Below, in pieces: positions 3,001-59,774 of a DNA stretch of 64,000 bases. The stretch is taken from contig OZ024744.1 of NCBI GenBank assembly GCA_964016885.1, positions 36,890,001 through 36,954,000 of the forward strand. The letters are read 5' to 3'. The translations under genes and the position numbers were made by a program. Source of the stretch: Eledone cirrhosa. Lineage: Eukaryota. Below the pieces are notes generated by a model. It was not told the origin of the DNA. It saw nothing but the letters and a program-made list of their open reading frames with translations, and searched no databases. Within the stretch, counting starts at the first letter, position 1; each line of letters starts with the position of its first letter.

Positions 3001-3060
3001 CCGTTCTGTGCCGACTGTAGTGTTTTTCTACAGTTAGCCCTTGTGGCCAATAAAGAAACG
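1..3060 (+). mobile_element. Tx1/L1-clade non-LTR retrotransposon (copy A), deleted and scrambled, 5' end outside window
   Basis: ORF2 ATG at 661 gives MALLRIGRINVRGL (APE N-terminus). RT pieces include NFKPISLL..DFKIL and LDQSKAFDRVDH. The C-terminal CPRC..H region is present twice (~810-1220 and ~2310-2800). Ends in CCCTTGTGGCCAATAAAGAAACG followed by (ATT)n. Same family as 52922-58260. Confidence 0.88.
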
Positions 3061-3096
<36 letters not shown>

Positions 3097-3097
3097 T
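3061..3097 (+). repeat. (TTA)n spacer between tail-to-tail Tx1 and Dong
   Basis: Direct reading of the sequence. Confidence 0.97.
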
Positions 3098-4511: not shown

Positions 4512-4518
4512 ATTATTA

Positions 4519-4571
<53 letters not shown>

Positions 4572-4578
4572 GTTGTTA
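4511..4578 (+). repeat. (TTA)n spacer
   Basis: Direct reading of the sequence. Confidence 0.97.
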
Positions 4579-14033: not shown

Positions 14034-16922
14034 AGCTGCATTTATCTTGCTTTATGTTCATACGAGTTATCACCAAGTCACAACCAGTGACCTCAAGAGA
14101 CAACAAGGTCCGCCATATTCAAGAAAGAACATATATACTCATACATGCATCTTTAGGTGTTTAGACTTGTGATGTACTTATATTGACAGAATCTTCCTTA
14201 GTATATGGGCAGTTCCCATTAGTACTATCTTTTGTATTTCTCCTATACGCGGGTTTCCTGGGATTTGCGATAAGTAATCATTAGACCTCTTAGGTATCAT
14301 TCCTAGAGTGCCTACAACCACTGGTATTGTTTTAGTTCTCAATTTCCACATTTTTCCAATTTCTATCTCCAGGTCCTTATACTTGCTCAATTTTTCAAAT
14401 GTTTTTATAGATACATTCATGTCTATTGGAACGGACATATCAATTAGCAGGCATACCCTCTTTTTAAAGTCCTTCAATATTATATCAGGTCTATTTGCAT
14501 CTATTTTTCGGTCTGTTTGGATTCTAAAGTTCCACAAGATTGAGATGTGATCTTTTTCAAGTATGGGAGGTGGTTGATGCTCACACCAATTCTTTTGATG
14601 GGACAGGTCAAAATGTTTACACATTATCCAATGTATGTATTGTGCAGCTCTGTCATGCCTGTTTAGGTATTCGGTTGGAGCTATAGGACTGCACATTGAA
14701 ATTATATGGTCACTGGTCTCTGGTTGTTTTTTACATACACGGCATAATGGGCTGCATCCATTTTTTATTATGTTGGCTTGGTAATATTTTGTTGGCAGAC
14801 ACTGATCTTGTGCTGATATAATCAGTCCTTCAGTCTCCGATTTCAGTCCAGAGGATGCCAACCACTAATGGGTTAACGTTTTGTAAACATCAGGATTGTT
14901 AGCTCGTTCTGGGTATTTTCCATACAGAGGCTTTTCTTGCCATTTCTTAGCCAGTTTCTGTAGCAGTTCTTTCTTTGCAGTTACTTTTACATACTTTGCT
15001 TTTTCTGTTTTCCATTTCAGCAGTAAATGGGACTTCTGAAATTTGTAGTCCATTACTGTATCTTTGTGCATCTTTTGTAATGGAATATGATCTTTTGATG
15101 CTTTTGTGTTTCAAAACGAGTTTGATCATCCAATCATGTGATTCCCTTAGATATGTACATAATCCAATTGTTGCAGTTTTCAACGCAATGTTTAACTGAT
15201 GCATAATAGAGATGATTTAAATCAGTAATGTTTAGTTTGTTTGTGATGATAATGTTTTTGAGAATTATGTTAGTCTTGTGTATTATCTTTTGGTTCTGTT
15301 TGGAGTTCTGGATCTTAGGGAGTGTGTCTCGTTCCCCCATGTCAGATTCTTTCATTTTAATCCATTCGATCATAATTTCATCCTTCAAGTTGGCAAGTTC
15401 ATTCTCATTCATTTCTTTATCATTTACGATCTCATTATTTTCATTTTGAGTTTCATCTTGAGCATGCACTCCCTCCACTTTTCGATCCTTTTTTTAATTT
15501 GTTCTGTTGTCAGTGATTCTGCCCCAACCCTGGGATTCGAAGTGTTACTATTTACCTCGTTTTCACTGACACATGTTTCATTTTCCCTTCGCTGACTTTG
15601 TGCTAATAGCTTGATCTGATCAATTTCTATATCAGTTAGTAACTTTTTTTTTACAATATTTCTTCGTATATTGGCTAGTTTGTTACTGTCAATATAGCCT
15701 CTGTTTTCGGGATGTTTCTTTTTCCAGTTGATATATGTCTGTTCTGTATTCGATGTATTTGATGGGTAGTACATGGCAGTGTAGAAAGCCTCAAGGACTT
15801 CTTTATTATCTTCCCTTTACCATCTTTCTCTCTTTTTCTTTGAATTTCTATATATACATTGGATAATGTGTAAGCATTTTGACCTGCCCCATCAAAAGAA
15901 TTGGTGGGAGCATCAACCACCTCCCATACTTGAGAAGATCACATCTCAATCTTGTGGAACTTTAGCATCCAAACAAACCTAAAAATAGATGCAAATAGAC
16001 CTGATATAATATTGAAGGACTTTAAAAAGAGGGTATGCCTGCTAATTGATATGTCCGTTCCAATAGACAAGAATGTATCTATAAAAACATTTGAAAAATT
16101 GATAAGTATAAGGACCTGGAGATAGAAATTGGAAAAATGTGGAAATTGAGAACTAAAACAATACCAATGGTTGTAGGCGCTCTAGGAATGGTACCTAAGG
16201 GGTCTAATGATTACTTATCGCAAATCCCAGGAAACCCGCTACAGCCATATGAGCCTCGTTTACACCCTTTCTGCTCAATAGGAAATAGGTCATTTGTTAT
16301 CAGGTGGTCATATGTGTATTCAGTTAGGACTGATGTTAAAATTTTATACATTGTGGTCAAGCAAGTTATCGGTCTGTAATTTTGGGGATTGTTTGTCTCA
16401 TCATTCTTCGGAAGCAGGAATGTAATGCCGTTAATTAGCCATGATGGCATCTTTTCTGGCTCCTTAACTATTTCATTGTAAAGTTGGGCTCACAGCTCAT
16501 GAGACTGTGAAAGCATTTATCCAAAAATTTTGTATCTTGTCTTTTCCTGGGGATTTCCATTTGCTGGTGTTTCTTAGAGCCAAGCGCAACTGTTCAACTG
16601 TTATATTTTCCCCCTATTTGTTCTTCAAGGTGAGCTGTATCTCTCATTTGTCTGTCTATTCATGGGGCATGTATCTTATGAACTTTTTCTTCGGCCCAGA
16701 TCTTTTCCCAGAATTCTTGCACTTCCTCATTGGGTGGTATTGATTTAGCAGTTATTGTTGACTTACCAATTTTTCTGTAGAAGTTTCTATGGTTGTTTTT
16801 GAACATATTATTGTCCTTATATAATCTAGATCGTTTTTCAAAGCGCCTTATACGAGCAGCTTTGGCCGACACTTTTTGCTTGATTATTTCTATCAGCATG
16901 TCTATGTCACTTGTTGATTTTA
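14033..16922 (-). mobile_element. Dong family B copy, internally rearranged with an inverted segment
   Basis: 3' end and RLE at 14033-15198, N-terminal piece at ~15199-15853, inverted RLE piece on + at ~15854-16239, RT N-terminal piece (NYRPITCL) at ~16240-16922. Confidence 0.85.
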
Positions 16923-16984
16923 TATTATTATTATTATTATTATTATTACTATTATGATTATTACTATTATTATTATTATACATT

Positions 16985-17169
16985 GGCGGTGGATTGGCAG
17001 TATCGGTAGAGGGTCGGACGCCATGCTTTCCAGTATAGTTACGTCCCTTTACGATCTGAGTTCAAATCCCGCCGAGGTTGACTTTGCCTTTCATCCTTAC
17101 GGGGTCGAGAAAATAAAGTACCAGTAATTGCTGGCCTTGTGCCTAAAGTAGAAACAATTATTATTATTA

Positions 17170-17170
<1 letters not shown>
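16985..17170 (+). mobile_element. tRNA-derived SINE (octopus-type, Meta/Sauria-like central domain) with (ATT)n tail
   Basis: A box TGGCAGTATCGG at 16995, B box GAGTTCAAATCC at 17058, core GACTTTGCCTTTCATCC..GGGGTCG..AGTACCAG; multiple copies in the window. Confidence 0.85.

Positions 17171-17173
<3 letters not shown>

Positions 17174-17260
<87 letters not shown>
17174..17260. repeat. (TA)n microsatellite (one of many; others near 18118, 18230, 19200-19400, 24600, 27310, 27620, 29250-29770, 30175, 31945, 58530, 58730, 61240)
   Basis: Direct reading of the sequence. Confidence 0.97.
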
Positions 17261-22400: not shown

Positions 22401-23570
22401 TTCTAACGAAGGGCAGGGCATACCGAGGCTGATGATGCTCAAACACGCACTGAGGCTACGCCATCTCCAGGTATTCCTGACCGGCGAACCGGTGTGGCTG
22501 TCGTTTGTGAGACGAGCTCTTCCACAACTCGTCTCACTAACAGACTTGCAGTCCTGGGTCAAGCGAAGACCGAAAATGGGCGCCTGGCACCTCAAGTGCC
22601 TTCAGGCGCTCACAGCCCTCTGCCAAGCGGAAACGGCAGTCAGCGGAGACTCCACCTCGACATTCTATAGGGGATTAGTGGAGAACAATTGCGACGACGT
22701 TCTCGGGAAAAATCTAGGCATCGAGGAAGACGAACTGACCAGTCTGTTCGGGATGATTTTCCGTCCAGGGCCTATGGATAGCTTCCAGCGGTCTCTGGGC
22801 TGGCAATACTACCGAGGAGCTCTACTAGTTCGAGACAAAATCTACATGCACGGATGCCCTGGCAGAGATCCTGCCAAAAGGACCTGTCCAAGATGCGAGC
22901 AGGACATCGAAACAGTTCTGCACTCAATTGTTCAGTGCCCAGGGGTGACCGACCTGTAGAATTATGTCGAACAGCTACTGTCACATGTAGGACGCATCCA
23001 GTTGTCAGCCGAGTCCATCGTGAGGATCAATCTGCCGCCTTCATTTAAGAATGAAGGAGAGGCGGTCTACCTCTGTCCGGTGGCTATGACGAAAGAGGTA
23101 ATATGCTGGACGAGGTTAAAAGGACTGAGGGCAAACACCTTTTTCTCCGGACAACAACTCATCCCATTCTTTAAGTACCACTTCAGAAGAAAGGGGAGAG
23201 TGGAGAGAGAGGTTCTATACCCCAGTACATTCGCTGAAAGGTGGGTGAATGTGGCGAAAATGGCCCGAGTGAATGGGCCTTCTCTGTATATAAACATGTT
23301 GGTTGAGGAAGATAAACCGAGGGAAGACAGGAACGCCTACAAAACATGTTCCTGGTGTTGAGGGTTGTTCTATCCACGGGGTGTAAAACAACCACGCTGT
23401 AGCGTTACACCCCCCCCCCCACACACACACACACAATGGGGATTTCAATTGTTTTATTTTTATATAGTTTATTGTTATTTATCATTGTTAAAGATTTTAT
23501 GTAAAACCCCCGCCGTCACGTCTTGTAATCTCCCATTTTTGTACGCCCCTGTGGCAAATAAAGAAAGATA
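19465..23570 (+). mobile_element. Tx1/L1-clade element (copy B), 5'-truncated in ORF1, degenerate ORF2
   Basis: ATG at 19889 gives MAIIQVGCLNIRGL. Also GDWN, SYLDR, SDH, GYWKLN, KSPGLDGLPYEFY, QGCPLS, HADD and CPRC..ETV.H. Terminal CCCCTGTGGCAAATAAAGAAAG. Confidence 0.88.
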
Positions 23571-23944
23571 TCTATTACTCGCGTACACCACACACATACA
23601 TACACATACACAGACACACACGTATACAAGCACACACACATTCACAAGCGACAATCTGACACACACTCGAATATATTTTTAAAAGCTGTATATGTTAATA
23701 AAATATTTTTTTAATATATATTTAAATTAATATGGAATATAATAAACAAAAATGGCTGCTATAGAAAAGTACTTACCACCAAAGTAACAAGTCAGCGTAA
23801 AGAAATATTTTCTATCGCTGCTCAAATAAATCTCATTTTCTCAATTAAAATCCTACGCATATAGGTTTGTATAAATGCTTTTCTATGCAGAAGAAAGAAC
23901 TTGTAAAAACGAAAAAAATTAAATTGACTCCCACATTTTCATTC

Positions 23945-32690: not shown

Positions 32691-32988
32691 GCGGACTGCG
32701 CGTGGACCCCTATTTACTCACAGTAATGATTGATGGGGAGAGCGAGAGAGACGGAGGCGATAACAGTGGGAGTTTGGTTCCTTTGTGTTCGGTCCTGTTG
32801 TTTATATATGTATATATGAGAGAAATAGTCTAACAGTTGTTTCTTGTACAGTAAATTTAAGGAAACTAAAACAATAATAAATATTTTTCCAACTTTTGGC
32901 AAATGGCCAGCTATTACCTTAGTGCATTACTGGTACTTCATTTCATAATAATTGTTTTTACTTTTGGCACAAGACCAGACTTCATTTC

Positions 32989-33019
<31 letters not shown>

Positions 33020-33024
33020 TAATA

Positions 33025-33206
33025 ATTGTTTCTACGTTTTGGTACAAGGCCAGCAATTTACCAGTGCATTACTGGTATTTTATTCTATCGACTCCGTAAG
33101 GATGAAAGGCAGAGTTAACCTCGGCGGGATTGGAACTCAGAATGGCAAGGGCCGTAACTCTATGCATCAACGCATAGCGTCCGACCCTTTAACGATACTG
33201 CCAATC
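33025..33206 (-). mobile_element. SINE copy flanked by TAA tracts on both sides
   Basis: Homologous to 16993-17156. Confidence 0.85.
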
Positions 33207-33207
33207 T

Positions 33208-33214
33208 AATAATA

Positions 33215-33259
<45 letters not shown>

Positions 33260-33284
33260 GAAGAAGAAGAAGAAGAAGAAGAAG
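33208..33284 (+). repeat. (TAA)n then (GAA)n tract
   Basis: Direct reading of the sequence. Confidence 0.95.
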
Positions 33285-35978
33285 CGACTGAGTGGGCAAA
33301 TCGGGGAAATGAGAAATGACATAGGAAAGCTTGAGTCACTACTGAATGGGACACTAAAAAACATAGGCACTAAAAATAGACTGGAAATAAAATACAAAAC
33401 TAGGAGTAAAAAGCTAAATATTATCATAGAGGAACTGAAGCAACGCATTGTAGCAAAGAGTGCCAAAATCAGGCGATACGAGAACAGAGTCAGTCAGTAT
33501 AAACAGAACCGCATGTTCGACAACAACCAGATGATGCTGTTTGGACAGCTTGAGGGGGAAAGAAAGAGGCAACGACTTGATCCCTGGGGCGGAGCAAACT
33601 AAAACATTCTGGAGAGGAATATGGGAGCAGGATGTTAGACACAATGCCCAGGCAGGGTGGATTGAGACAGTACAGAGGGAGATCGGTGAGCAGGCACAGC
33701 AACAGACTGATTTGAGTATCACAGTTGAAACTCTTAAGGGGCAAGACAAAAAACTAACCAACTGGAAATCACCAGGCCCAGATGGTGTGCAGGGGTATTG
33801 GATTAAACATCTAACATCCCTCCACCCGAAGCTGACGGCCATGTTCAATGACTGCTTGGTGTCGGGTGAGGTGCCAGAGTGGTTGACAAAAGGTACCACA
33901 GTTCTGATAATGAAAGACCGAATCAAGGGTAATGATGCTACCAACTATAGACCTATCACATGTCTGCCCGTAATGTGGAAACTGTTGACGAGCATTGTGT
34001 CTGAGGAAATCTACCATCACCTCCACACAAACAATTTGTTACCGGACGAACAGAAAGGATGCCGAAAGAAGTCACGTGGTACAAAGGACCAGTTGCTTAT
34101 TGATAAGATGGTAATGGGGAATTGCAGGAGGAGACACACTGATCTTACCATGGGATGGATAGACTACAGAAAGGCATTTGACATGGTGCCTCATTCCTGG
34201 ATCACCAAAAGCCTGGAGATCTTCAGGGTGGCAGATAACATCAGACAGTTGCTAGGCAGGAGTATGGGGTCCTGGGAGACAGAGTTGACATCAACTGGAG
34301 TATCCTTGGGAAGCGTGAAGATCAAGAGAGGTATCTTCCAGGGAGATAGCCTGTCCCCTCTGTTGTTTGTCCTTGCCCTGATGCCCTTGACCATTATGCT
34401 GCGAAAAGTGAGAGCAGGATACAAGTTGGGAAGGGGAGAGCTTACCATCAATCACCTCCTCTTCATGGACGATCTTAAGCTCTTCGGGAAAAGTGAGAAG
34501 GAGTTGGATGTGCTTGTTGACACTGTCCGTATTTTCAGCAGTGATATATGTATGCAGTTTGGTATTGGTAAATGTGGAGTCATTGTGATGAAGAGGGGTA
34601 GGTTGAGCAGAAGTAACGGGATCCAGATACCAACAGGTGAGATGATAAAGGAAATTGACTCTGAGGAAGGATACAAGTATTTGGGCGTTCTGGAGGCTGA
34701 TGGCATAAAGAACAAAAAAATGAAGGAATTGTTAAGAACTGAATACATTCGGAGAGTAAGGAGCGTATTGAAGTCACATCTGAACAGCAGAAATGCCATA
34801 AGCGCAGTAAATTCCCGAGCTGTGTCTATTATTAGGTACAGTGCAGGAATTCTGAGATGGAATGTTGCTGAACAGAAAGAAATGGATAGGAAGACTAGGA
34901 AGCTATTGACTATCTACAACATGTTCCACAAGAGGAGTGATGTCGATAGACTCTACCTAAGGAGATCTGAGGGTGGAAGAGGTCTTATCAGCATAGAGGA
35001 CTGTGTTCAGATGGAGAAAAACAACCTATACAAATACGTGACCTATAGTAAGGAGCCAATGCTCAGAACTGTACTGAAGGAGGGGACAGTAGGCCAGGGG
35101 ATGTCCAGGGAAGAAATAACATCAAGGAGGAAGAGCAGCCTTAAGGGAAAACCCCTTCATAGTACCTTCTTTGAGAAAACTGAATTTAGAGATCCACAGA
35201 CATGGAACTGGTTGAGAAGAGGAGACCTCAAAAAGGCTACAGAAGGAATGCTAATGGCTGCGCAGGAGCAGGCCCTCAAAACGAAGTGGTTGAAGCACCA
35301 TATCTACAAGGAGGAGGCTAGCCCACTGTGCAGGATCTGTGGAGAGAGAGGAGACTGTGGCTCACATGTGTCCGAGTGTAAACACCTAGCCCAGACCCAC
35401 TATAAGGGCTGGGGACACGATGTGATGGGCAGGGTGATCCACTGGCACCTGTGCAAAGTAAACAATCTACCACATTCTGAGAAATGGTATGAGCATAGGC
35501 CAGAGGCGGTGATGGAGAACAATCAGGTGAAGGTGCTGTGGGATTTTAGGATACAGACGGACAAAAAACTGGAACACAATAGACCTGACCTGGTGGTTGT
35601 GGACAGAGAAAAAAGATCGTGCCTGATTGTGGATGTGGCCTGCCCGTTCGACACGAGAGTGCAAGAGAAGGAGAGGGAGAAAATTAACCGATACCAGGAC
35701 CTAAAGTGGGAGGTGAAAAGGATTTGGAACTGCCATGAAGTCAAAGTGATCCCGATTGTCATAGGCGCACTGGGGACTATCTCCAAAAGTTTCCAGGGAT
35801 GGTTAAAGAAAATCGGCCCCTTCACGCTTTTTGGAACGCTTCAAAAAGCATGCTTGCTTGGAACAGCAAGAACCCTCCGATACGTCCTGAATATCTGAGG
35901 CTGCAGGTAGTGGCTTGATATTCAATCCAACGGACTTTCCAGTTAACCAACATCAATGACTGAGATTCAAGGAATAAC
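33278..35978 (+). mobile_element. Dong family A copy A3, 5'-truncated
   Basis: Near-identical to A2 and A4; ends ATTCAAGGAATAAC followed by (TAA)n. Confidence 0.93.
33541..35898 (+). CDS. RT-CCHC-RLE polyprotein fragment (785 aa) of the truncated Dong copy
   Basis: IDYRKAFD, QGDSLSPLLF, FMDD, YKYLG, CRIC, RPDLVV..DVACPFD..EK..Y. Confidence 0.8.
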   Translation: MDSLRGKERGNDLIPGAEQTKTFWRGIWEQDVRHNAQAGWIETVQREIGEQAQQQTDLSITVETLKGQDKKLTNWKSPGPDGVQGYWIKHLTSLHPKLTAMFNDCLVSGEVPEWLTKGTTVLIMKDRIKGNDATNYRPITCLPVMWKLLTSIVSEEIYHHLHTNNLLPDEQKGCRKKSRGTKDQLLIDKMVMGNCRRRHTDLTMGWIDYRKAFDMVPHSWITKSLEIFRVADNIRQLLGRSMGSWETELTSTGVSLGSVKIKRGIFQGDSLSPLLFVLALMPLTIMLRKVRAGYKLGRGELTINHLLFMDDLKLFGKSEKELDVLVDTVRIFSSDICMQFGIGKCGVIVMKRGRLSRSNGIQIPTGEMIKEIDSEEGYKYLGVLEADGIKNKKMKELLRTEYIRRVRSVLKSHLNSRNAISAVNSRAVSIIRYSAGILRWNVAEQKEMDRKTRKLLTIYNMFHKRSDVDRLYLRRSEGGRGLISIEDCVQMEKNNLYKYVTYSKEPMLRTVLKEGTVGQGMSREEITSRRKSSLKGKPLHSTFFEKTEFRDPQTWNWLRRGDLKKATEGMLMAAQEQALKTKWLKHHIYKEEASPLCRICGERGDCGSHVSECKHLAQTHYKGWGHDVMGRVIHWHLCKVNNLPHSEKWYEHRPEAVMENNQVKVLWDFRIQTDKKLEHNRPDLVVVDREKRSCLIVDVACPFDTRVQEKEREKINRYQDLKWEVKRIWNCHEVKVIPIVIGALGTISKSFQGWLKKIGPFTLFGTLQKACLLGTARTLRYVLNI

Positions 35979-36005
35979 AATAACAATAATAATAATAATA
36001 ATAAT

Positions 36006-39000
36006 GTTTTCTTTATTAACCACAAGGGTTTACATAAAGTAGACATTAAGGACAGTACAGGACAATACAGGACGGTACAAATGGGCATTTCTGCGTGTAA
36101 AAAAACAGAGGTCGAAATAAAATAACAAAGAAAAATTCCCCAATAGGGGGGAGACTTCCGAGGGACATTTGTGGAGAAAGCCCATTAAAAGACCACAGTG
36201 GCCCTGACCACCAGGGCAAGTGCCCTCTCCCAGTTTTCCACCTTTAATTTACAGACACATACTCAGAGAAGGCCCATTCATTCGGGCCATACTTGCTTCT
36301 CTCACCCATCTTTCAACAAAATGCTGGGAAGAGAGCACTTCCCTCTCTACCCTGATTTTCCTTTTCAGATGAAATTTGAAAAAGTTAATCAGGGCATCAC
36401 CGAAGAGGTAAGTGCTCGTCTTCAGCCCTTTCAAAAGTATCCACGTTACTATCTCTTTCGCCATGGCCACCAGACAGATAAAAACTGCCTGCCCTTCCCG
36501 GCTAAAGAAAGAGGGCGGGGAAATCCTCACGATGGACTCAGCTGATAGCTGGATCCGTCCTACACGTGACAGCAGGTGTTCGACATAAACCCACAAGTCA
36601 GCAATGCTCGGACACTGGACGAGTGCGTGCAGGACGGTTTCGTCGCCCTGCGCGCATCTCGGACATGCCCGGCTGACGGCACCTCCATGCCTGTAGAGTT
36701 TATCCCGAACTGGCAAAGCTCCTCGGTAGCACTGCCAGGCCAGGGAATTCTGGAAGTTGTCCATAGGCCCCGGCCCGAAAGTTCTTCCGAAGAGATTGGC
36801 TAGTTGATCTTCGTCGACGCCTAGAGTTTCTCCAAATACGTCGTCGCTCTTCCCCTCCACTAATCCCCTATAGAACGCCAAGGTGGAGTTTCCACCGATC
36901 ACATTGCCCGATTGGTCGAGGGCTGTGAGCGCCTGAAGACATTCCAGTCTCCAAGCGCTACCTCTCGGTCTTCGCTTGACCCAGGACTGCAGCTCCATCA
37001 AGGAGACGAGCTGGGGAAAAACGTGTCTAGCAAACGGCGACCACACCTGATCACCGTCGAGGAAGAGGTGGAGATGTCGTAGCCTGAGCGCGTGTCTGCG
37101 TATCATCAGCCACGGCATGCCCAGCACTCCACGTAGCGGGTGTTGACAGCAGATGGACCGCCTGACCATCGGAGCGCGTCCCTTCCACAAGAAGCGAAAG
37201 AGCAAACGCTCCAGCGCAGTCAGGCGGGGCTTAGGACAAGGTACGACGGTCAGGCGGTAGTAGATGACGGATGCGATGTACGCATTCGCCACCTCCGCTC
37301 GACCTTTCAGGGATAGCTTCCTCTCGACCTATTTCTGGGTGAGAGAAGCCACCCTGCTCGTCACCTCGTCCCAGTTTTTGTCCGTCTGGAGGTCTGGACC
37401 GAACCAGACCCCTAGCAATTTAACCGGACCGCCCGTCCAGCGCCCGACGACGCTGTTGGACGGCATGGACCTGCCTCTCCAGGTGCCGAGCTGCAGGCCC
37501 ACTGACTTTTCCTGGTTGATCATTGCTCCGCTTCGTATTCTCTTAGTGTAGTGCCGATCGCCTCGATGTGTTTGGTGTTCGACACCACTACGGTGACATC
37601 GTCCGCATATGCTGACACGGATTTTCCGCATCCTAGTGTGCGCGGGATCCCCCTCAACGTCTCCAGTTTCTGCAGTAATGGCTCGAAAGTCAATACGTAC
37701 AAGAGGGACGAGAGGGGACATCCTTGGCGGACCGAGCGCATGATGTTGAACGGTTCCGAAAGGTGATCGTTCACTCTCACCACAGTACATGGCAGCGATC
37801 GAGCCTCTGAAGACGGGCCCCAAACCAGCCGCCCTCAGGACTGCCGCTAGATAACGATGGTCGACCCTATCGAAAGCTTTCGACTGATCTAAGTTTATCA
37901 AAGACCCACCCGTGCCAGGTTCGCTAGCTACCCTCTCTACGATGTATCGCATCAGGTGTAGGTTGTCGTGGATGGATCTGTGGGGAATGGCGCATGTCTG
38001 CACCTCTCCCACCAGACCACCAACGACAAGCGCCAACCTCTTTGCTAGCACCTTGGCCAAAATCTTGAACTCAGTGTTTAGCAGAGTTATCGGCCTAAAA
38101 TTATCTATGTTATCCCTCTTGTTCGGATCCTTTCTCAGCAGCGGCACCGTTCCTCGGCTCACAGAGCTGGGAATTCTCCCGTTCTGTTGCCAGTTGCAGT
38201 AGACGTCCGCCAAGAGGCCTCCGAACAAGTCTGGCATTTGTACGTAAAGTTCATAGGGCAGACCATCCAAACCAGGCGATTTACCCCTTGTGAAGCCAGT
38301 CATTGCCTCCAGTACTTCAGCGGTTGTTATCGGCTTTTCGCAACATTCCGTCTCAGTGGCCGAAAGCCGCGGCAGTCCATCGAGGTAGACACTAAAGTCC
38401 ATCCCTCGATTCGGCCCGCCACTGCTCCCGAACAGTTGAGCGAAGCGTCGCTGAAAAGCTTCACACATTTGCCCGGGATCGAGTAGCATGCGCCCGTCGT
38501 GGTCCACCAAAGACCGGATCGTGGCGTTGTTGCAACGACGCGCCTCCGCCACTCGGGCCCATTGAACAGCTTTCGTCCCCTCGTGTCTGAGAGAACGCAC
38601 CCTAGCTCTGACAACGCAGCCTACGTGCTTTGCATTGAAGAATTGGTCAAGGGCCAATTTCGCCGCAAGTACGTCTGTCGCGGTGCCTTTGCAAAGCGCC
38701 TCGTCTAATTTTCTAACTAATTCTCCCTCTGCTCTATTTTTCTCTATTGCTAAAGCCTTATTAAACCTAATGGACTCTATTCTAATTGCTCTTTTCAGAG
38801 CAAACCACCACTTGCTGTTGACGATGGCCCCCGTCAACGCCCGCTTAACTAGTTCGCTAATCCGGTCTCTGTAGGCCTTGCGCGCTGGTAAGGACGCGTT
38901 TAGCTTCCAGTAGCCGGCTCCTCGTCTATGAAACCTATCTAAATCAAGCACACAGATCACGAATTTGTGGTCCGTGTAGCTGACTATTTTGAATTGTGGA

Positions 39001-41830
39001 CAGCCTATGCTAGACCTATCTATTTCCCTACAAAATATTCTATCTAGATATGATCTGGATGACCCTATGCGATTTGTCCAAGTCCACATTGGTACATTCG
39101 AGAAATCCAAACGGTACCTGTCAGACAGTTCAAAACGCCTGAGCAGGTTGGTGAGACTCTTGCACCCTCCTCCCCTATCCACTAATCCCACACAATCCCA
39201 GCGTGTATCTAAGATCCCGCTCCAGTCGCCCACTAACACTAAAGAGCGGGACGTTCCAAGAAAGGTCTCCAGACGCTTGAAGAAATCAGGCCGCCCTGCT
39301 CCTGTCGGGGCATAGACGGCCACTAACCTGAAAGCTTGCCCGTCTCCGCTGGTCACGTCCAGCACCACCACTTACCTTCTGGGTCCAGGAAGATGGCCCG
39401 TATGGCAAGATCCAAACCTCTCCGAAAAAACACAGCAACTCCACCCCCCGATCCCGGACGGCTGGGAGATGCGTACACATCGTAGCCGCCGAAGATCGGT
39501 GCGAAGTCCCGTGCTTTGGAGGTTCTGGTCACGCTGATGGCCACTACATCTATGTTTAGTGACCTGAGGTCGTTGAACAGGTGGCCCTGCTTCCATGACG
39601 ACCCCAAGCCATGCGCATTTATGCTGCCTATTCTGAGTGAGGTTATGTTGAAAAGGAGTGAAAAAGATGGGAAAGACCACTTATCTTACTTCTCGTAGAG
39701 GAAGGACGGTTTTTCCATCTATTTCACTGCTTGTGGCCTCCTGGGGAAGGACGTCCTTATAAATCCTCCTGGAGAGTGCTTGTCGGAAGTCTCCGATGTC
39801 TTTGGGGAATTTTTGTTTTAGTGTCATGTACGTTTTCTGTGTGATGCGAGTGATTTGTATGTGTGGAGGTGGTGTGAATTTTTGGGTTGTTGTGTAGTCT
39901 TTTTCTGTGATGTTGGTGTTGTGTTGGATGTAGTGTAATAATTGCTTGTTGTTCAAATTTAATGCTGTGTAGTGTGTATCGTTTTGGTTGTTTTGTTTTG
40001 TTTGCGTTTGTTGTGGGTTTGTTTCTGTTTCGCATTTTGGTGACTTTTGTGGTGTAGGTGATGGTGGTGTTGGGGTTAATGATGGTGATGGTGTTGGTGT
40101 TTGGGGTGATGGGGTTGGTGATGCTGGTGTGGATGGTGGCATATCTATCCTAACTTTTTTGTTTGTTAATTTATTTGTTTCCCTCTGTATTTTGTTTTTG
40201 GAGGGGGAAGGAAGAGAATTTTTTCTTTTTTGGTTTCTTTTTTTCTTTTTTCCTGATACCGTTTCCCACTGCTCGTCGTCACAATCCGTCTCCAGTTGTG
40301 ATAGTCCGGGGAGTGGAAAATCCTCCACAGGCGTTAGTTCTGGTTGTGGCGTCCTGGATGGTATAGGCGCTGGTGCTAGTTCTGAAGCGTTGGGTGGTGT
40401 TGGTTTTGCTACTGTTGTGGGGTTGTTGCTGTTATAGTTGCTTCTCTTGTTGCTGCTACAGTTGTTGCTGCCATCTCTGCTACTTGTGGTGTTGATGGTT
40501 GATTCACTGGGGTGGGTAGGAGAGGTGGCCTCAACCTTTTAGCCTGAGTGCAGAAACCCCTTAGGTGGGTTCCTTCACCACAAACGACACACCTAGGCCT
40601 TCTGCCCTCGACAATTACGGTGAGGTGGCTGCCGTCAGGGAGGTCTATTACCTCTGGGATCTCCTCAATGCTTTTTTGGTCCGTTTGGATCAGGTGCTCC
40701 ATCCCAGATCCGGACCAGTTCTCCTGCTTTTCTTTTGCTATTGCTATTATCTTGGTGTTGGCTTCGATGCCGGCGTGGACGGCCGCTATTAGTCAGGGAA
40801 ATTCGATGGCCGGTGGAACGTGGGTCACCCTGATCTTTACGAGTCTCTGGCCACAATAGCTTGGGACGAGTGTGAAGTCGTCACTTTTTAATGGGGCCAT
40901 GGAGTGTTCTCTAGCCTCTTCTGGTGTTTCAAAGAACACGTCCACGGTTCCATACTTCTGCCCACGTCTGATGTGGGTTTTTCTTGCCCACACATATCCC
41001 AAAGCTTTATGGATATGGAACTCGGATGCCCGTTCCACTCGGCGCAATTTTACATTAATTGTTCGATACGACACGGTGCATAGGTGCCGATGCTCCATTT
41101 TATTAGGTGTGGGGGGAGGGGCTGACCCTGTACACATCTTTCTTTACCATTGTTTTGGCATTTTCTAATTCCTCCTGAGTTACCTGAAATGCTTCGCACT
41201 CTTTTGCTACTCTGGCAAAACTCAGTGTGGTTTTTTTAATGTCATTGTTGCTGTTGTTGTTATCGTTATTTTTGTTATTATTAATTTTAGTTTCACTTGT
41301 GGTGGTGGTGACGTCAGTGGTGTTCGGTGTGGAAGAGTCCATTTTGGTTGAATTCATTTCGACATCACGAGTTAATTTATTTTTTTCTTTTGTTTCTGTT
41401 GTAGCGGTGGTGGTGGGGGTGGGGGTTGTCGCGGTGGTGGTGGTGGTGGTGGCGGCTTTAACACCTGCAGTTATTGGTAATGGCGGGAAATGAATGTCTG
41501 CCTGAGACAAATTTAAAATATTGCTACTGCTTAAATTTTTTGTGTTGGCAAGCGTAGTAATATTTACAATGGTGGTGTCGGTGTGAGGTGATAGTTTATG
41601 AGGAAGGCTGTCAGCTTCGTGTGGCGGTGAGACTTCCATGTTTTTTTTTCAAAGAAATTTTTTTGATAATTATAAATGTTTAAATTTTGACCCCAATCTT
41701 TTTGGAAAACAATGTATGTGCGCTTATATACAGTTAACAATAAAATTTTCCATAAATGGCAATTTTTAACAAACGGAAACAACAAACCTTTGCGGAGCTC
41801 ACGATGATACGATTTACTACGTAGGTCGCC
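36006..41830 (-). mobile_element. Tx1/L1-clade element (copy C), full-length, frameshifted
   Basis: ORF1 pieces at 39681-41639 with CVVCGEGTHLRGFC knuckle; ORF2 APE-RT at 37329-39371, YADD in 37520-37783, C-terminus at 36249-37292; TTA tracts at both ends. Confidence 0.92.
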
Positions 41831-41857: not shown

Positions 41858-44800
41858 GATTTCATTTATTGGCCACAAGGGCCGACATATAGGGGACAAT
41901 ACAAAAGATTGGGAGAGTGGGGTTTTACAGAAAAATCGAGTAAACAATATGAATAACAATAACAAATTAACAATAAAGTAACAATAAAATTACAACAACA
42001 AAAAATTCCCCAATAGGGGGGATGACAACCAGGGTTCGCTCAAGTACCCCACCAATCCTGAACGACCCGACGCTTCGAGAGCACCCTGGAAGGGCACCCC
42101 TATCCTCCTTAAATTTACCTACCTACAGCCGCATGACCAGAGTAGTTCCTCACACGGGCCATTCTCGCCACATTCACGCACCTTTCAGCAAATGTAGTGG
42201 GGGGCAGCACTTCTCTCTCCACCCTCACCTTCCTTTCCAAGTGAAACTTGAAAAAGTTTCGGAAAACAATGTATGAAAAGTGTCTGTCTTCAGTCCTTTC
42301 AACCTCGTCCACCATACAACCTCTTTCGCTACTGCCACCAGACAGAGGAAAATTGCCTGCCCTTCCTGGCCAAAAGAAGGCGGCAGGTCGATCTTCACTA
42401 TGGACTCGGCCGATAGCCGGATCCGTTCTACACGCGACAACAGCTGTTCAACATAACTCCACAAGTCAGTAATGCGCGGACACTGGTTGAGTGCGTGCAG
42501 AACGGTTTCGTCGCTCTGCGCGCATCTCGGGAAGGTCCGTCTGACAGCACTTCCGTGCCTGTAGAGCTTATCTCGAACCGGTAGTGCCTCCCGGTAGCAC
42601 TGCCAAGCGAGGGATTTTTGGAAATTATCCATCGTCCCCGGCTCGAAAGTCCTCCGGTAGAGACTGGTTAGTTCGACTTCGTTGACTCCCAGAGGCTCTC
42701 CGAGTGCGTCGTCGCACTTGCCCACCACTAATCGTCTATAGAACTCGAGAGTGGAAGTTCCACTGACCGCATTGCCCGCCTGGTAGAGGGCAGTGAGTGC
42801 CTGGCAACATTCCAGATGCCAGTCACCCAGTCTAGGTCTCTTCTTGACCCAGGACTGCAACTCAGTCAAAGAAACCAGCTGCGGAAAGCCCGTCTGACAA
42901 ACGGCGACCACACCTGTTCACCGTTCAGGCAGAATATCTGGAGATGCCGCAGCCTCAGCGCGTACCTGCGCATCATTAGCCACGGCATGCCCAGCCCTCC
43001 ACGTACAGGGTGCTGACAGCAGATTGACAGCCTCACCAGTGGAACCTGACCCCTCCACAAGAATTTGGAGAGGCGCGAACGGGGGCAAGGGACGACGGTC
43101 AGACGGTAGTAGATGACGGACGCGATGTACGTGTTCGCCACCTCCGCCCGACCTTTCAGTGATAGCTTCATCCCATCCTATTTCTGGGTGAGACTGGCTA
43201 CCCTGCCCGTCACATCGTCCCAATTCTTATCCACCTGGAGGTCTGGCCCGTAGCAAACCCCTAGCAACTTTACCGGTCCGTCCGTCCAGCGCCTTTTCCG
43301 GGTTAAGTTTTGCTCCCGTCAACCTTTCATATTCCTCCAATAAGTTGCCGACCACCTCGATTTCTGAGGTGTCCGACACCATCACGGTGATGTTCGCATA
43401 AGCCGACACAGCCTTTCCTTTCCCGGTTCGAGCCGGATGCCCTGCAATAGCTCCAGCTTTTCCCGTAAAGGCTCGAGAGTCAATACGTACAGAAGGGAGG
43501 AGAGAGGGCGCCCTTGACGGACCGATCCGGAGACCTGAAACGGTTCCGAGAGGTGGCCATTAATTTTGACCATCGAGCAGGTGCCGCTGTGCATTGCAGC
43601 GATCCAGCTTCTGAAGATGGAACCCAAGCCAGCCGCCTTGAGGACAGCCTCCAGGTACCGATGGTCGACCCTACCGAAAGCTTTCCAGTGATCTAAATTG
43701 ATCAGAGGCCCACCGAAGCCAGGTTTACACACAACCCTCTCTATGATGTATCGCATTAGGTGGAGGTTGTCATGTATGAACCTGGTTGGGATTGCGCCAG
43801 TCTGCGCCTCCCCAACCAAATCCCCGACGACAAGCGCCAACCTCTTCGCTAACACCCTGGCCAAAATCTTAAACTCTGTGTTGAGCAGAGTTATGGGCCC
43901 GAAATTGTCTAATATGTCCCTCTTGTTCTCGTATTTCCATATCAGCGTCACTACGCCCCGGCTCACAGAACTGGGAATACTCCCGTTTTGCTGCCAGATG
44001 CAGTAGAGGGCTTCGAGGAGATTGGAGAACAAGTCTGGCATATTTACGTAAAGCTCGTAGGGCAGACCATCCAAGCCGGGTGACTTGCGCCTCATGCAGC
44101 CGACAAGGGCATCCTGAATCTCGGCTGAAGTAATTGGCCTTTCGCAGCGCCCAGCGTCAGCCGTCGATAGTTGCGGCAAGCCATCGAGGTAGGGACTGAA
44201 GTCCGAGACCATCTCTGACCCACCACTTCCCCCGAACAACCGAGCAAAATGTTGGCGAAAAGCCTCACACATCCTCTTGGAATCGCTCACCTCGTGTCCG
44301 TCTCGGTCCGTCAAAGACCGAATCCTGGTTTTATTACCACGCTGCGCCTCCTCCACGCGGGCCCATCGAACAGCTTTGGTTCCCTCGTTTCTCAGAGCAC
44401 GCGCCTTAGCTCTGACAATGCAATCTTCGTGTTTCGCATTGAAGAAATGGTCTAATGCCATTCTCGCCGCTAGCACGTCAGTTGCAATGCCACTACCAAT
44501 AGCCTCGTCTAACTCATCTACCAACTCCCCTCCTTTCTATATTTCTCTAACTCTTCTTCTTTGCTAAACTCTATCGACATTACTCTAATCTCTCTTTTGA
44601 GAGACCCCGCCATCTATTGTTGACGACTCCCCCTGTCAACTTTTTCTTAACTAAACTGTTGACCTGGTCCCTGTAAGCCTTACGTGCCGGAAATGACATG
44701 TTTAGCTTCCAGTAACCTGGTCCTAACCTACGCGTCTTATCTAGGCCGACCATACAGATCACAAACTTGTGATCTGAATAGGCGACCGTTTCAAAACGTG

Positions 44801-50800: not shown

Positions 50801-50831
<31 letters not shown>

Positions 50832-50836
<5 letters not shown>

Positions 50837-51530: not shown

Positions 51531-51549
51531 TAATAATAATAATAATAAT

Positions 51550-51926
51550 GTTTTCTTTATTAACCACAAGGGTTTACATAAAGTAGACATTAAGGACAGT
51601 ACAGGACAATACAAGACGGTACAAATGGGCATTTCTGCGTGTAAAAAAAACAGAGGATGAAATGAAATAACAAAGAAAAATTCCCCAATAGGGGGGAGAC
51701 TTCCGAGGGACATTTGTGGAGAAAGCCATTAAAAGACCACAGTGGCCCTGACCACCAGGGCAAGTGCCCTCTCCCAGTTTTCCACCTTTAATTTACAGAC
51801 ACATACCCAGAGAAGGCCCATTCATTCGGGCCATACTTGCTTCTCTAACCCATCTTTCAACAAAATGCTGGGAAGAGAGCACTTCCCCCTCTACCCTGAT
51901 TTTCCTTTTCAAATGAAATTTGAAAA

Positions 51927-51930
<4 letters not shown>
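51550..51930 (-). mobile_element. 5'-truncated 3' fragment of Tx1 family C
   Basis: Near-identical to 36006-36389; TAA on both sides. Confidence 0.92.
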
Positions 51931-51969
<39 letters not shown>

Positions 51970-51972
51970 TAA

Positions 51973-52900
<928 letters not shown>

Positions 52901-52921
52901 TAATAATGTAATAATAATAAT

Positions 52922-55900
52922 GGTTTCTTTATTGGCATAAGGGCTAACACGAAGAAAAACATTAGAGACGGCACAGAACAGACAGGACGATACAAAGTGG
53001 GTTTTGGTCGTGTAATCAGGTTATAACAAAATCGGGCTAGAAATAAATAAAAAATCAAACAACAAGAATTCCCCCAAAAGAAGGAAACCTCCGAGGGTCA
53101 CTCGTGGCGAAAACCACACGAAAAAGACCACAACAAGCCTGACCACCAGGACAAGCGCTCTATCTCAGTTTTCCGACTCCTCAGTCTACAGGTGCATACT
53201 CAGAGCGGGCCCGTTCACTCGGACCAGACTCGCCACTTTTACCCACCATTCAACAAATTTAGACGGCCTCTCCACCCTGATTTTCGCATTCAAGTGAAAC
53301 TTGAAAAATTTAATCAGGGATTGGCCAAAGAGGAAAGTGTCCGTCTTGAAACCTTTCAACCTTGTCCACCACACAAACTCTTTCGCCATGGCCACCAGGT
53401 AGATGAAAACTGCTTGCCCTTCCTCCTCTTTAAAGGAGGATGGCGGGGCTATCTGCACAATAGACTCAGTCGATAAACGGATACGTCCGTCACGCGACAG
53501 CATCCGTTCGACATATCTCCGCAAGTCAGCAATCCTCGGGCACTGAACGAGTGCGTGCAGGATTGTTTCGTCGCCCTGCGCGCATCTCGGACTGGCTAGA
53601 CTGACAGCACATCCGTGCCTGTAGAGCTTATCCCGAACCGGCACCACTCTGAAAGTTCTCTTGAAGAGAGCGAACATCTGATCGTCTTGGACGCCCAGGG
53701 ACTCCCCGAGCACGTCGTCGCACTTTCTCCCCACTAGCCCTCTATAGCACGCCAAGGAGGATGTTCCACCGATACTAGTGCCCAGCTGTCGAGGGCGGTC
53801 AGCGCTTGGAGACATTCCAGCTTCCAAGCGCTAACCCTCGGTCTTTCCCTGATCGAGGAAGTAACTCCGTCAAGGAGACGAGCTGAGGGAAAGCGCGTCT
53901 GGCAAATGACGACCACACCTGTTCACCGTCAAGGAAGCTCCAGAGATGTCACAGCCTCAGCGCATGTTTGTGCATCATCAGCCACGGCATGCCTAATCCT
54001 TCATGCAACGGGTGTTGACAGCAAATGAATCGTTTGACCATGGGAGCACGTCCGTTGCACACAAAGCGGAAGAGAAGGTGCTCCATTTTGGTCAGAGTTG
54101 GGCCGGGACAAGGTACGACGGTGAAGCGGTAGCAGATGACGGACGCTATGTACACATTTGATACCTCCGCCCGACCTTTCAGAGACAGCCTCCCCTCGGA
54201 CCATTTCTGGGTGAGGGAGGCCACCCTGTTAGTCACCTCGCTCCAGTTTTTCTCCATCTGGACCGAACCAGACCCCGAGCACATTAACATGCCTTTCCGT
54301 CCAGTGCCCCACGACGCTGTCGAACGGTATGGACATGCCTCTCCAGGTGCCGAATTGTAAGCCCACCGACTTTTCCTGGTTTATCTGTGCTCTTGTCACC
54401 ACTTCGTATTCCTTGAGTGCGGTGCCGAGCATCGGGACGTGTTTGGTGATTGACACTAGCACGGTGACGTTGTCGGCGTAAGCCGACATGGATCTCGCGC
54501 ATCGTCTCCAATTAGTGCAGTAACGGCCTTAGGGCCAGTACGTACAAGAGGGAGGAGAGAAGGCAACCCTGGCGGACCGAGCGCATGATGCTGAAAGGCT
54601 GCGACAGGTGACCATTCACCCTCACAATCGAGAAGATGTCGCTGTGCATTGCAGCAATCCAGCCCCTAAAAACGGTCTCGAAACGCTCAGGTACCGAAGG
54701 TCGATTCTATCAAATGCTTTAGATTGATCCAAATTGATCAAGATTCTTAACCACCCTCTCTATGATGTATCGCATGATATGGAGATTGCCGTGGATGGAT
54801 CTGTCCTGAAGGGCGCATGTGTGCGCATCTACCAGATCACCGACGACAAGCTCCAATCTATTTGCTAACACCTTGGCCAACATCTTAAACTCTCCGTTTT
54901 GCAGAGTTATGGGCCTAAAGTTGTCTATAACGTCCCCCTTGTTCGGGTCTTTTTTCAGCTGCGGCACCGCTCCCTGGCTTACAAAACTAGGAATGCTCCC
55001 GTTCTGCTGCCAGTTGCAGTAGACATCTGCCAAGAGGTCGCCAAACAAGTCTGGCATATACGCATAAAGCACGTAGGGCCGACCATCCAAACCAGGCGGT
55101 TTACCCCTCGTGCAATCAGTCATCGCTTCCCGTATTTCACCTGCTGTTATCGGCTTTTCGCAGCACTGCGCTGCGTTCGTCGAGAGCCGCGGCAATCCAT
55201 CGAGGTATGCACCGAAGTCCATACTCCGACCGGCCCGCCACCGATCCTGAACAATTGAGCAAAGTGCTGTTGAAAAGCCGCACACATCTGCTCGGGTTCG
55301 AGCAACATGCGCCCGTTTTGATCTGGCAAAGATCGAATTGAGGACTTGTTGCCACGTCGCACCTCCACCACCCGGGCCCATTGAACGGCTTTCGTCACCT
55401 CGTGCCTTGGAGCACGTGCTCTAGCTCTGTCAATGCTTTGCGTTGAAAAATTGGTCGAGTGCCAATCTCGCCGTAAGTACGTCGGTTGCGATGCTTGTCC
55501 TAAACGCATCTTCTAGCTTTCTAACTAACTTTCCCTCTACTCTATATTCCTCTATCACTACTCCTTTGATAAACCTTATCGATTCTACTCTAATAGCCCT
55601 TTTCAGGGTAATCCAACACCTGTTGTTTACGATCGCACCCGTCAACGCACGCTTAAATGATTCGCTAATCCGTTCTCTGTAAGCTTTGCGCGCCGGGAAC
55701 GACGCGTTCAGCTTCCAGTAGCCGGGCCCTTGTCTATCGAGTCTATCTAAGTCAACTTCACCGATCACAAATTTGTAGTCGACTACATTAAATTGTGGAC
55801 AATCTACGCTAGCCTTATCTGTTTCCCTACAGAATACCCTATCTAAATATGATCTGGATGACCCGATGCGATTTGCCCATGCCCACATTGGCACATTCGG

Positions 55901-59574: not shown

Positions 59575-59774
59575 ATGGTTTCTGATTATGGCACAAGCCC
59601 AACAATTTTGGAAGAGGCGGGAAAGTCGATTAAATCGACCCCTGTGCGTTACTGGTACTTTATTTGATCGATCCCGTAAGGGTGAAAAGCAAAGTTAAAT
59701 TCAGAACAAAGGCCATAACTAAATACTGTACAGCATGTGGTCCGACGCTCTACTGATCCTGCTAATCCACCGCC
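59575..59774 (-). mobile_element. SINE copy (older variant)
   Basis: Head GGCGGTGGATTAGCAGGATCAGTAG; tail GGGCTTGTGCCATAATCAGAAACCATTAT. Confidence 0.8.

What the first reader, a model, noticed from the sequence alone, without database searches (positions are those of the whole stretch)
17133..17170. SINE 3' terminus mimics the Tx1 3' terminus: candidate SINE-LINE partnership
Seen: SINE GGCCTTGTG-CCTAAAGTAGAAACA-ATTATT versus Tx1 A GCCCTTGTGGCCAATAAAGAAACG-ATTATT. Also SINE 59575 GGGCTTGTGCCATAATCAGAAACC-ATTAT versus Tx1 E GCCCTTATGCCAATAAAGAAACC-ATTAT. The SINE at 16985 also starts at TT|GG after a TTA tract and has Tx1 polarity, as does the copy at 33025. Known: many SINEs borrow the 3' end of their partner LINE. 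Inference: this abundant SINE is mobilised by the TTA-targeting Tx1 group, which would be a stringent-type pairing unusual for the L1/Tx1 clades, and its (ATT)n tails may seed new targets.
Basis: partly seen in the sequence, partly recalled or inferred. Interest (0 to 1): 0.78.

Follow-up and report, generated by a model that had tools for sequence, protein, structure and literature searches.

The report
Octopod SINE carries Tx1 retrotransposon's tail
A very abundant short jumping element in what is likely an octopus genome ends in the same 24-letter motif as the neighbouring Tx1 retrotransposons and inserts at the same ATT-type sites in the same direction, so Tx1 enzymes likely copy it, a tail-sharing partnership I did not find described for this group in animals.

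Summary
Confirmed and sharpened. The SINE end (17133-17156) matches the Tx1-A end (3037-3060) at 17/24 with no gap (shuffle p 5e-5). A SINE-only profile picks out Tx1 ends (27/40) but no Dong (0/22), RTE (0/7) or CR1 (0/11) ends; of 1,368 non-SINE ATTATT sites the top 12 are SINE remnants or Tx1-type ends. Divergent Tx1 families keep a 3-bp stem around a variable loop; the SINE has the CUUGU loop with one stem pair swapped. SINEs insert at ATTAT in Tx1 polarity with 12-22-bp duplications, overlap Tx1 in age, and nest reciprocally with Tx1; two Tx1+SINE units share one duplication. Corrections: the SINE's ATT 'tail' is duplicated target DNA, not borrowed sequence. Its hairpin is outcompeted in full-context folding. 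Young Tx1-C needs long (ATT)n tracts; the SINE does not. Tx1 duplication length could not be measured. Best reading: Tx1 ORF2p mobilises the SINE through the shared end (0.7), untested biochemically. Known precedents: SINEU/Tx1-Mar (shared target only) and plant/algal L1-tail SINEs. This scan reported the same pairing earlier on other DNA of this genome (e1-9580941).

The parts
16985..17156 (+). Full-length SINE copy (short variant, 172 nt)
   Evidence: 2,617 first-look candidates in the genome, best copies 93-98% identical
16995..17068 (+). Pol III A-box-like (16995-17006) and B-box-like (17060-17068) motifs; box consensus recalled
   Evidence: no Rfam hit, no ARAGORN tRNA
17086..17114 (+). 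Central conserved SINE domain, shared with unrelated SINE-like repeats (V-domain label recalled, not verified)
   Evidence: at least 120 exact 29-nt matches in metagenome contigs, with other heads and tails in the 80 loci examined
17133..17156 (+). Tx1-like 3' end: GGC[CTTGT]GCC + 13 nt
16966..16984 (+). Left copy of the target-site duplication
17157..17174 (+). Right copy of the target-site duplication (the apparent ATT tail)
3037..3060 (+). 3' end of Tx1 family A copy: GCC[CTTGT]GGC + 13 nt, then (ATT)n to 3094
52922..52944 (-).
36006..41830 (-). Full-length Tx1 family C element, end ACC[CTTGT]GGT; inserted in the (ATT)n tail of family B, 5' junction ATT|GG
41858..41882 (-). 3' end of Tx1 family B
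51549..51572 (-). 3' end of a second family C fragment
23545..23568 (+). 3' end of a Tx1 family with CCTGT loop and TATC-type tail
33027..33206 (-). SINE copy, slightly 5'-truncated, after a (TTA)n tract in Tx1 polarity
59577..59774 (-). Older long-variant SINE copy
33278..35985 (+). Dong/R4-type LINE ending in (TAA)n, antiparallel in the tail of the family C element (rival, excluded by polarity and tail)

Best explanation
This SINE shares its last 24 nucleotides and its ATTAT target polarity with the genome's (ATT)n-associated Tx1/L1-clade LINEs, whose ORF2 protein likely recognises that end and copies the SINE RNA into the genome. Shown: the shared end in register, the ATTAT target, the 12-22-bp duplication, overlapping ages and reciprocal nesting. 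Inferred steps: (1) Pol III transcribes the SINE from its A/B boxes and reads into the flanking ATTAT; (2) Tx1 ORF2p binds the 3' element, a short stem with a CUUGU loop 13 nt before AUUAU; (3) its APE endonuclease nicks the bottom strand at an ATTAT site, and the freed 3' end pairs with the RNA's AUUAU and primes reverse transcription; (4) a second nick about 16-19 bp away makes the duplication. The best partner is family A or a close relative (highest profile score, similar age, short tails, most SINE neighbours), not the strictly tract-bound family C.
For: 17/24 without a gap, p=5e-5. SINE-only profile: Tx1 ends 27/40 at p<0.01 against their own shuffles, Dong 0/22, RTE 0/7, CR1 0/11; the top 12 of 1,368 non-SINE ATTATT-upstream sites are 2 SINE remnants, 9 ORF-linked Tx1 ends and 1 Tx1-like end. 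In 13 clean Tx1 end clusters the two inner stem pairs always pair, the loop varies in 7, and family C changes the outer pair G-C to A-U; the hairpin is predicted at median P 0.89 in families A and C. SINE duplication of 12 bp or more in 38/98 (control 3.3%), peak 16-19 bp; ATTAT in the 5' flank 51/98 vs 4.5% background, the reverse 9/98. CR1 shows such a duplication in 1/29, and that one is a TA repeat. Full-length Tx1-C: 14/14 have a 5' (ATT)n tract of at least 16 nt. Median divergence: SINE main variant 5.2%, Tx1-C random sample 4.8% (n=7), Tx1-A top hits 4.8%. SINE head directly after a LINE end: Tx1-A 27/708 vs CR1 89/6,054, OR 2.7, p=5e-5. Tx1 fragments also sit in SINE tails (L415, L422, L423, L038, L050). 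L415 and L052 have one 16-17-bp duplication around a Tx1-fragment+SINE unit; 0 of 15 hand-picked short-spacer CR1+SINE units do.
Against: In SINE copies the CUUGU hairpin forms only locally (median P 0.85 in the last 35 nt); with 100-200 nt of context it falls to 0.01-0.09 because the 5' GG pairs upstream (penalty 1.4-2.9 kcal/mol, main variant). The stem swap rests on one pair. No Tx1 with the SINE-type stem exists by exact pattern (0; the 13 hits are all SINE copies), and only 6 SINEs carry the Tx1-type stem, about chance by my rough estimate. Tx1 duplication length was not measurable: family A 3/39 vs 10% control (5' ends mostly not reached), family C hidden inside tracts. Family C demands long tracts, while 36/37 SINE duplications contain non-ATT sequence. 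The excess of SINEs behind Tx1-A over CR1 is confounded by age (CR1 top hits 2.7%), and very short spacers occur with CR1 too. L052 can also be read as a nested insertion with a 5-bp duplication. The shared stretch is only 24 nt. A low-copy LINE absent from my roughly 1-Mb sample could match better.
Confidence: 0.7

Rival explanations
1. Tx1 ORF2p does mobilise the SINE, but in a relaxed way that needs only the terminal AUUAU pairing with the target; the 24-nt likeness is a relic of how the SINE was born and the hairpin is not read.
For: The SINE hairpin is outcompeted in context; the stem differs from every Tx1 family seen; L1-clade elements are mostly relaxed (PMC3472496, PMC3747384 passages).
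Against: Old and young SINE variants keep positions -24..-14 and -7..-2 while -13..-8 vary; Tx1 families only about 45-70% identical to family C in the ORF2 C-terminus keep the stem and spacing.
Confidence: 0.17
2. CR1 (which also ends in (ATT)n, is young, and is 8-9 times more abundant by exact end count) or an unseen low-copy LINE mobilises the SINE.
For: CR1 tail (ATT)n and 2.7% divergence of top hits; 6,054 vs 708 exact ends; 89 CR1-SINE junctions.
Against: No likeness of CR1 ends to the SINE end (0/11, median score -11.4); CR1 lacks long duplications while the SINE has them; RTE ends in (TGA)n and Dong reads the tract on the opposite strand; no other LINE end ranked high in the blind scan.
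Confidence: 0.1
3. The likeness is chance or convergence in AT-rich sequence next to ATT microsatellites.
For: Only 24 nt; a microsatellite-flanked repeat unrelated to LINE ends also scores 17-18 bits on the SINE profile.
Against: Matched control of 1,368 ATTATT sites: median -12.5, 99th percentile 4.5, with Tx1 ends at the top and in exact register with the tail.
Confidence: 0.03

Closest known systems
Stringent SINE-LINE pairs with a 3' stem-loop (UnaSINE/UnaL2; zebrafish ZfL2-1 and ZfL2-2; PMC4176376 abstract; PMC3747384 Table 1)
   Same: Shared 3' end; conserved stem with variable loop among LINE families; short terminal repeat.
   Different: The LINE here is L1/Tx1-clade, the shared part is only 24 nt with a 3-4-bp stem, the terminal repeat is also the endonuclease target, and nothing is tested biochemically.
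SINEU and Tx1-Mar of crocodilians (PMC4494074; abstract, passages, section 16 read)
   Same: SINE assigned to a target-specific Tx1 group by shared target and concurrent age.
   Different: There the link is target preference and shared U1/U2 heads; the paper found no LINE similar to the SINEU-1 3' half. Here the 3' end itself is shared, the head is tRNA-like, and the target is a microsatellite motif.
ZmSINE2/ZmSINE3 with LINE1-1_ZM (maize) and SINEX-3_CR with L1-1_CR (Chlamydomonas) (PMC3472496, PMC3747384 passages)
   Same: SINE with an L1-clade tail and a predicted hairpin with compensatory changes; the three L1-clade cases among 58 pairs.
   Different: Plants and algae, longer shared ends (about 45-80 nt), poly(A)/(T) ends; this case is an animal Tx1-type group.
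Kibi (TC)n and Koshi (TTC)n microsatellite-specific Tx1 (as cited in PMC4494074; original not read)
   Same: Tx1-type LINE that inserts into a microsatellite.
   Different: Target here is (ATT)n, shared antiparallel with Dong-type elements; clade placement not tested with reference RTs.
LINE-SINE template-switch chimeras flanked by one duplication (Magnaporthe MGL/Mg-SINE, PMC2104539 abstract)
   Same: L415 and possibly L052 look like one insertion of a LINE fragment fused to a SINE.
   Different: Only one clean case here; read-through of a downstream SINE would give the same structure.

Membership tests
Stringent-type SINE-LINE pair | SINE 3' end significantly similar to the partner LINE 3' end, and better than to other LINEs | tested here: met
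Stringent-type SINE-LINE pair | 3' stem-loop in both partners | tested here: inconclusive
   Tx1: P 0.89 and conserved stem; SINE: local only, outcompeted in context
Stringent-type SINE-LINE pair | Same integration signature (target, polarity, duplication length) | tested here: inconclusive
   ATTAT target and polarity shared; Tx1 duplication length not measurable, family C stricter than the SINE
Stringent-type SINE-LINE pair | Concurrent activity | tested here: met
   overlapping divergence (LINE top hits are biased young) and reciprocal nesting
Stringent-type SINE-LINE pair | Tail required for retrotransposition and bound by ORF2p | not testable with these tools
   needs cell or in vitro assay
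L1/Tx1-clade LINE | Two ORFs; ORF1 with a CCHC knuckle; ORF2 with APE endonuclease, RT and zf-RVT | tested here: met
   best PDB match human L1 ORF2p, E 8e-51
Tx1 subgroup | Target-site preference | tested here: met
   family C 14/14 full-length copies in (ATT)n, junction TT|GG
Tx1 subgroup | RT phylogeny groups with reference Tx1 (Tx1L, Kibi, Koshi, Keno) | not tested
   no named Tx1 reference came from the tools; named hits were an argonaut protein (73%) and unannotated fish and turtle RT proteins
tRNA-derived SINE (SINE2) | tRNA-related head with A and B boxes | tested here: inconclusive
   box-like motifs present (consensus recalled); no Rfam or ARAGORN hit
tRNA-derived SINE (SINE2) | Short, dispersed, high copy, flanked by duplications, 5'-truncated copies | tested here: met
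   99 ends in 1.064 Mb; 30/98 copies start at position 20 or later
V-SINE superfamily | Central domain matches the V/Vhc consensus | tested here: inconclusive
   domain is shared with unrelated SINE-like repeats; the published consensus was not found as text in the supplements searched (one file each not searchable); label recalled

The most novel reading that the evidence does not exclude
An animal Tx1 lineage uses stringent, loop-coded recognition of a minimal 3' RNA hairpin, and one of the most abundant octopod SINEs (roughly 280,000 ends by extrapolation) was amplified by mimicking it with a swapped stem pair; Tx1-SINE chimeras under one duplication record the Tx1 RT jumping from SINE RNA to its own RNA.
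Probability: 0.45. Interest if true: 0.72.

Novelty: new variant of a known kind. Interest (0 to 1): 0.56.

Why it matters
SINEs make up about 11.6% of the Octopus vulgaris genome (PMC13282606), and I found no paper naming their mobiliser. A Tx1 partner would explain where a major family inserts: at ATTAT sites, in tandem arrays, inside LINE tails. It would add an animal case to the three plant and algal L1-clade SINE pairs on which the idea of ancestral stringent recognition, later relaxed in mammals, rests. It also gives a very small (24-nt) element with natural loop and stem variants for testing how an L1-clade ORF2p chooses its template.

Tried and rejected
Rfam and ARAGORN on the SINE: nothing. 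Hybrid-end patterns: no Tx1 with the SINE-type stem and no SINE subfamily with the Tx1-type stem. Tx1-A duplication search failed three times because 5' ends of old, nested copies were mostly not reached; one plausible 18-bp case (L375). Short LINE-SINE spacers as a sign of Tx1 template jumps: rejected, CR1 shows them too. Relatives of the Tx1 C-terminus in metagenome contigs: none. Sequencing runs: no RNA holder listed; contigs of four runs showed the SINE, tail included, abundant in two runs with other organism codes, but gave no usable covariation. Dong as mobiliser: rejected on strand polarity and tail. RTE: rejected on (TGA)n tail and score. Single copies of three further LINE types (L116, L125, L103) were inspected by eye only and did not resemble the SINE end; no L2 family was seen in the sample. 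Of 20 Tx1 end clusters, I dropped 5 false ends (inner AATAAA or inserted repeats) and 2 decayed singletons before counting stem pairs. In one search the boundary of several TATC-tailed Tx1 ends was set 2-3 nt short, so they count as misses among the 40; many of the 40 are copies of family A and are not independent.

Full report
Setting. The window lies in a 3.0-Gb genome, likely an octopod: the closest named protein to the LINE ORF2 is from Argonauta hians, 73% over the RT region, and the LINE types seen (Tx1/L1, Dong-R4, CR1, RTE, Penelope) are those listed for Octopus vulgaris (PMC13282606, first third read). The window is a stack of APE+RT LINEs ending in (ATT)n and of Dong-type LINEs lying antiparallel in those tails, with several SINE copies.

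Observation. All quoted strings are present. The two differences in the stem are a complementary swap. The ATTATT after the SINE is the right copy of an 18-19-bp target duplication and should not be counted as shared sequence.

Is it specific? I sampled 1.0 Mb of the genome (80 evenly spaced 10-kb stretches of the four largest contigs and 20 beside the window) plus the window. SINE copies were found by their central domain: 139 hits, 127 reaching the 3' side, 99 with an end anchor, which extrapolates to roughly 280,000 ends. A profile built from these SINE ends alone was scored on LINE ends defined by ORF2 homology and tail position: Tx1 27 of 40 distinct ends at p<0.01 against their own shuffles, Dong 0 of 22, RTE 0 of 7, CR1 0 of 11. 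Many of the 40 are family A copies, and several TATC-tailed ends were cut short and count as misses. Among 1,368 non-SINE sites upstream of ATTATT (median -12.5, 99th percentile 4.5) the top 12 were 2 SINE remnants, 9 ORF-linked Tx1 ends and 1 Tx1-like end. A blind scan gave 11 non-SINE hits at 17 bits or more against 1.3 expected: 4 Tx1 ends, 4 SINE remnants and 3 copies of an unrelated microsatellite-flanked repeat.

The LINE partner. Family C has intact two-ORF copies: ORF1 with a CCHC knuckle, and ORF2 of about 1,140 aa with APE, RT and zf-RVT; the best solved relative is human L1 ORF2p. All 14 full-length copies examined have at least 16 nt of (ATT)n at the 5' junction, which reads TT|GG. 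Placement in Tx1 proper rather than the wider L1 clade was not tested by phylogeny. Across 13 clean end clusters (of 20; 5 false ends and 2 decayed singletons dropped) the two inner stem pairs always pair, the outer pair is G-C in 10, A-U in family C and broken in 2, and the loop is CTTGT in 6 and otherwise varies. Folding supports this hairpin in families A and C (median P 0.89; 16/24 and 38/47 above 0.5). This is the pattern of stem-general, loop-specific recognition described for L2 elements (PMC4176376, abstract).

The hairpin in the SINE is doubtful. It forms in the last 35 nt alone (P 0.85), but in 100-200 nt of context a longer upstream helix takes the GG (P 0.01-0.09; penalty 1.4-2.9 kcal/mol). 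No Tx1 carries the SINE-type stem, and only 6 SINEs carry the Tx1-type stem, about what random double mutation would give by my rough estimate. Old and young SINE variants do, however, hold positions -24..-14 and -7..-2 while -13..-8 vary.

Integration signature. Of 98 SINE copies with both flanks, 38 have a duplication of 12 bp or more (control 3.3%), peaking at 16-19 bp; ATTAT lies in the 5' 25 nt of 51 (background 4.5%) and the reverse ATAAT in 9. In 37 of the 38 the duplication starts directly after AGAAAC(A/C), with ATTAT nearly invariant and the rest free. This excludes Dong (opposite strand) and RTE ((TGA)n tail). CR1 also ends in (ATT)n but shows no long duplication (1 of 29, a TA repeat). 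The matching measurement for Tx1 failed: family A 3 of 39 against a 10% control, with 5' ends mostly not reached, and family C duplications hidden in tracts. Family C is stricter than the SINE, so family A or a relative is the better candidate: it scores highest (18 vs 9.5 bits) and has short tails like the SINE.

Age and nesting. Median divergence from the majority: main SINE variant 5.2% (n=70), old variant 14.9% (n=25), Tx1-C 4.8% in the random sample (n=7) and 1.2% in top hits, Tx1-A top hits 4.8%, CR1 top hits 2.7% (top hits are biased young). A sense SINE follows 13 of 39 family A tails and no antisense one does, against 1 of 47 for C, 1 of 30 for CR1 and 8 of 600 random sites. Genome-wide exact counts give 27 of 708 for A and 89 of 6,054 for CR1 (OR 2.7, p 5e-5), confounded by age. 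Tx1 fragments also lie in SINE tails. In L415 a 130-nt Tx1-A end, three bases (ATT) and a full SINE are flanked by one 16-bp duplication; L052 shows the same with 17 bp but can be read as a nested insertion. These are 2 of about 38 junctions examined, most of them uninformative; 0 of 15 hand-picked short-spacer CR1 junctions show it. A template jump or read-through would explain them (compare PMC2104539, abstract); they are suggestive only.

The SINE body. It has A- and B-box-like motifs (consensus recalled) but no Rfam or ARAGORN hit. A 29-nt central motif recurs exactly in at least 120 metagenome stretches; the 80 examined have other heads and tails, and none of the 39 with at least 100 nt downstream scores above 1.5 bits on the tail profile. 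So the tail is a swapped-in module, as described for SINE superfamilies (PMC4824008 passages; PMC4758252 passages and section 11 part 1). The V-domain label is recalled; supplement searches found no text match, and one file per paper was not searchable. Whether this SINE is OK, OR1 or OR2 of Ohshima & Okada 1994 (not read) is unknown.

Literature. Table 1 of PMC3747384 and PMC3472496 (passages) list three L1-clade SINE tails among 58 pairs, in maize and Chlamydomonas, and none for Tx1. PMC4494074 (abstract, passages, section 16) assigns SINEU to Tx1-Mar by target and head, with no LINE found similar to the SINEU-1 3' half. PMC5786205 (passages) does not mention Tx1 or octopus. PMC8967140 and PMC5804259 (passages) name no partner in the passages seen. 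Eight full-text searches found no tail-sharing Tx1-SINE pair; Repbase, Dfam and subscription papers were not searchable.

Verdict. Real and specific. Most likely Tx1 ORF2p mobilises this SINE through the shared end (0.7); relaxed Tx1 mobilisation 0.17; CR1 or an unseen LINE 0.10; chance 0.03. A new variant of a known kind, interest 0.56.

Noticed in passing
window 3061-4580, 33207-36005, 50803-52920; L031, L037, L044, L098: Dong/R4-type LINEs insert antiparallel into the (ATT)n tails of Tx1 and CR1 elements, so the same microsatellite is used from opposite strands by two unrelated endonucleases and builds head-to-tail stacks.
   Followed up: partly
window 23545-23580; L088, L108, L160, L012, L139, L013: Several Tx1 families keep the same 3' stem but end in TATC-type repeats and often have another loop (CCTGT, CTGGT, CTAGT); tail and target seem to have switched while the stem stayed.
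   Followed up: partly
L415 (G000:C6:94163687-94166731), L052 (G000:C1:143117954-143121150): Tx1 3' fragment fused to a SINE under a single 16-17-bp target duplication: candidate template-jump or read-through chimeras.
   Followed up: yes
L101:1181-1640, L113, L118, L119, L079, L106, L125, L145: A repeat of about 200 bp flanked by microsatellites, ending in an inverted repeat, scores 17-18 bits on the SINE-tail profile; it is not a LINE end, and a Helitron-like nature is a guess from recall.
   Followed up: partly
L075, L100, L142, L005, L011; window 27995-28123, 32883-33206: Tandem SINE arrays, each copy inserted in the ATTAT duplication of the previous one, often with isolated tail fragments.
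   Followed up: partly
L244-L323 (metagenome contigs): The SINE's central 29-nt motif is shared exactly by at least two unrelated SINE-like families with different heads and tails.
   Followed up: partly
L232:2427-4568 vs L235:2357-3877: Two family C copies with near-identical ORF2 carry quite different ORF1 proteins, suggesting ORF1/5' replacement.
   Followed up: no
L068, L094, L100, L135, L165: RTE families end in a hairpin-like motif plus (TGA)n after a long 3' UTR; possibly the partner of another abundant short element (recalled, not tested).
   Followed up: no
window 15851-16905: A second Dong-type element has a 390-nt piece inverted relative to the rest, next to the TTA tract that holds the SINE.
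   Followed up: no
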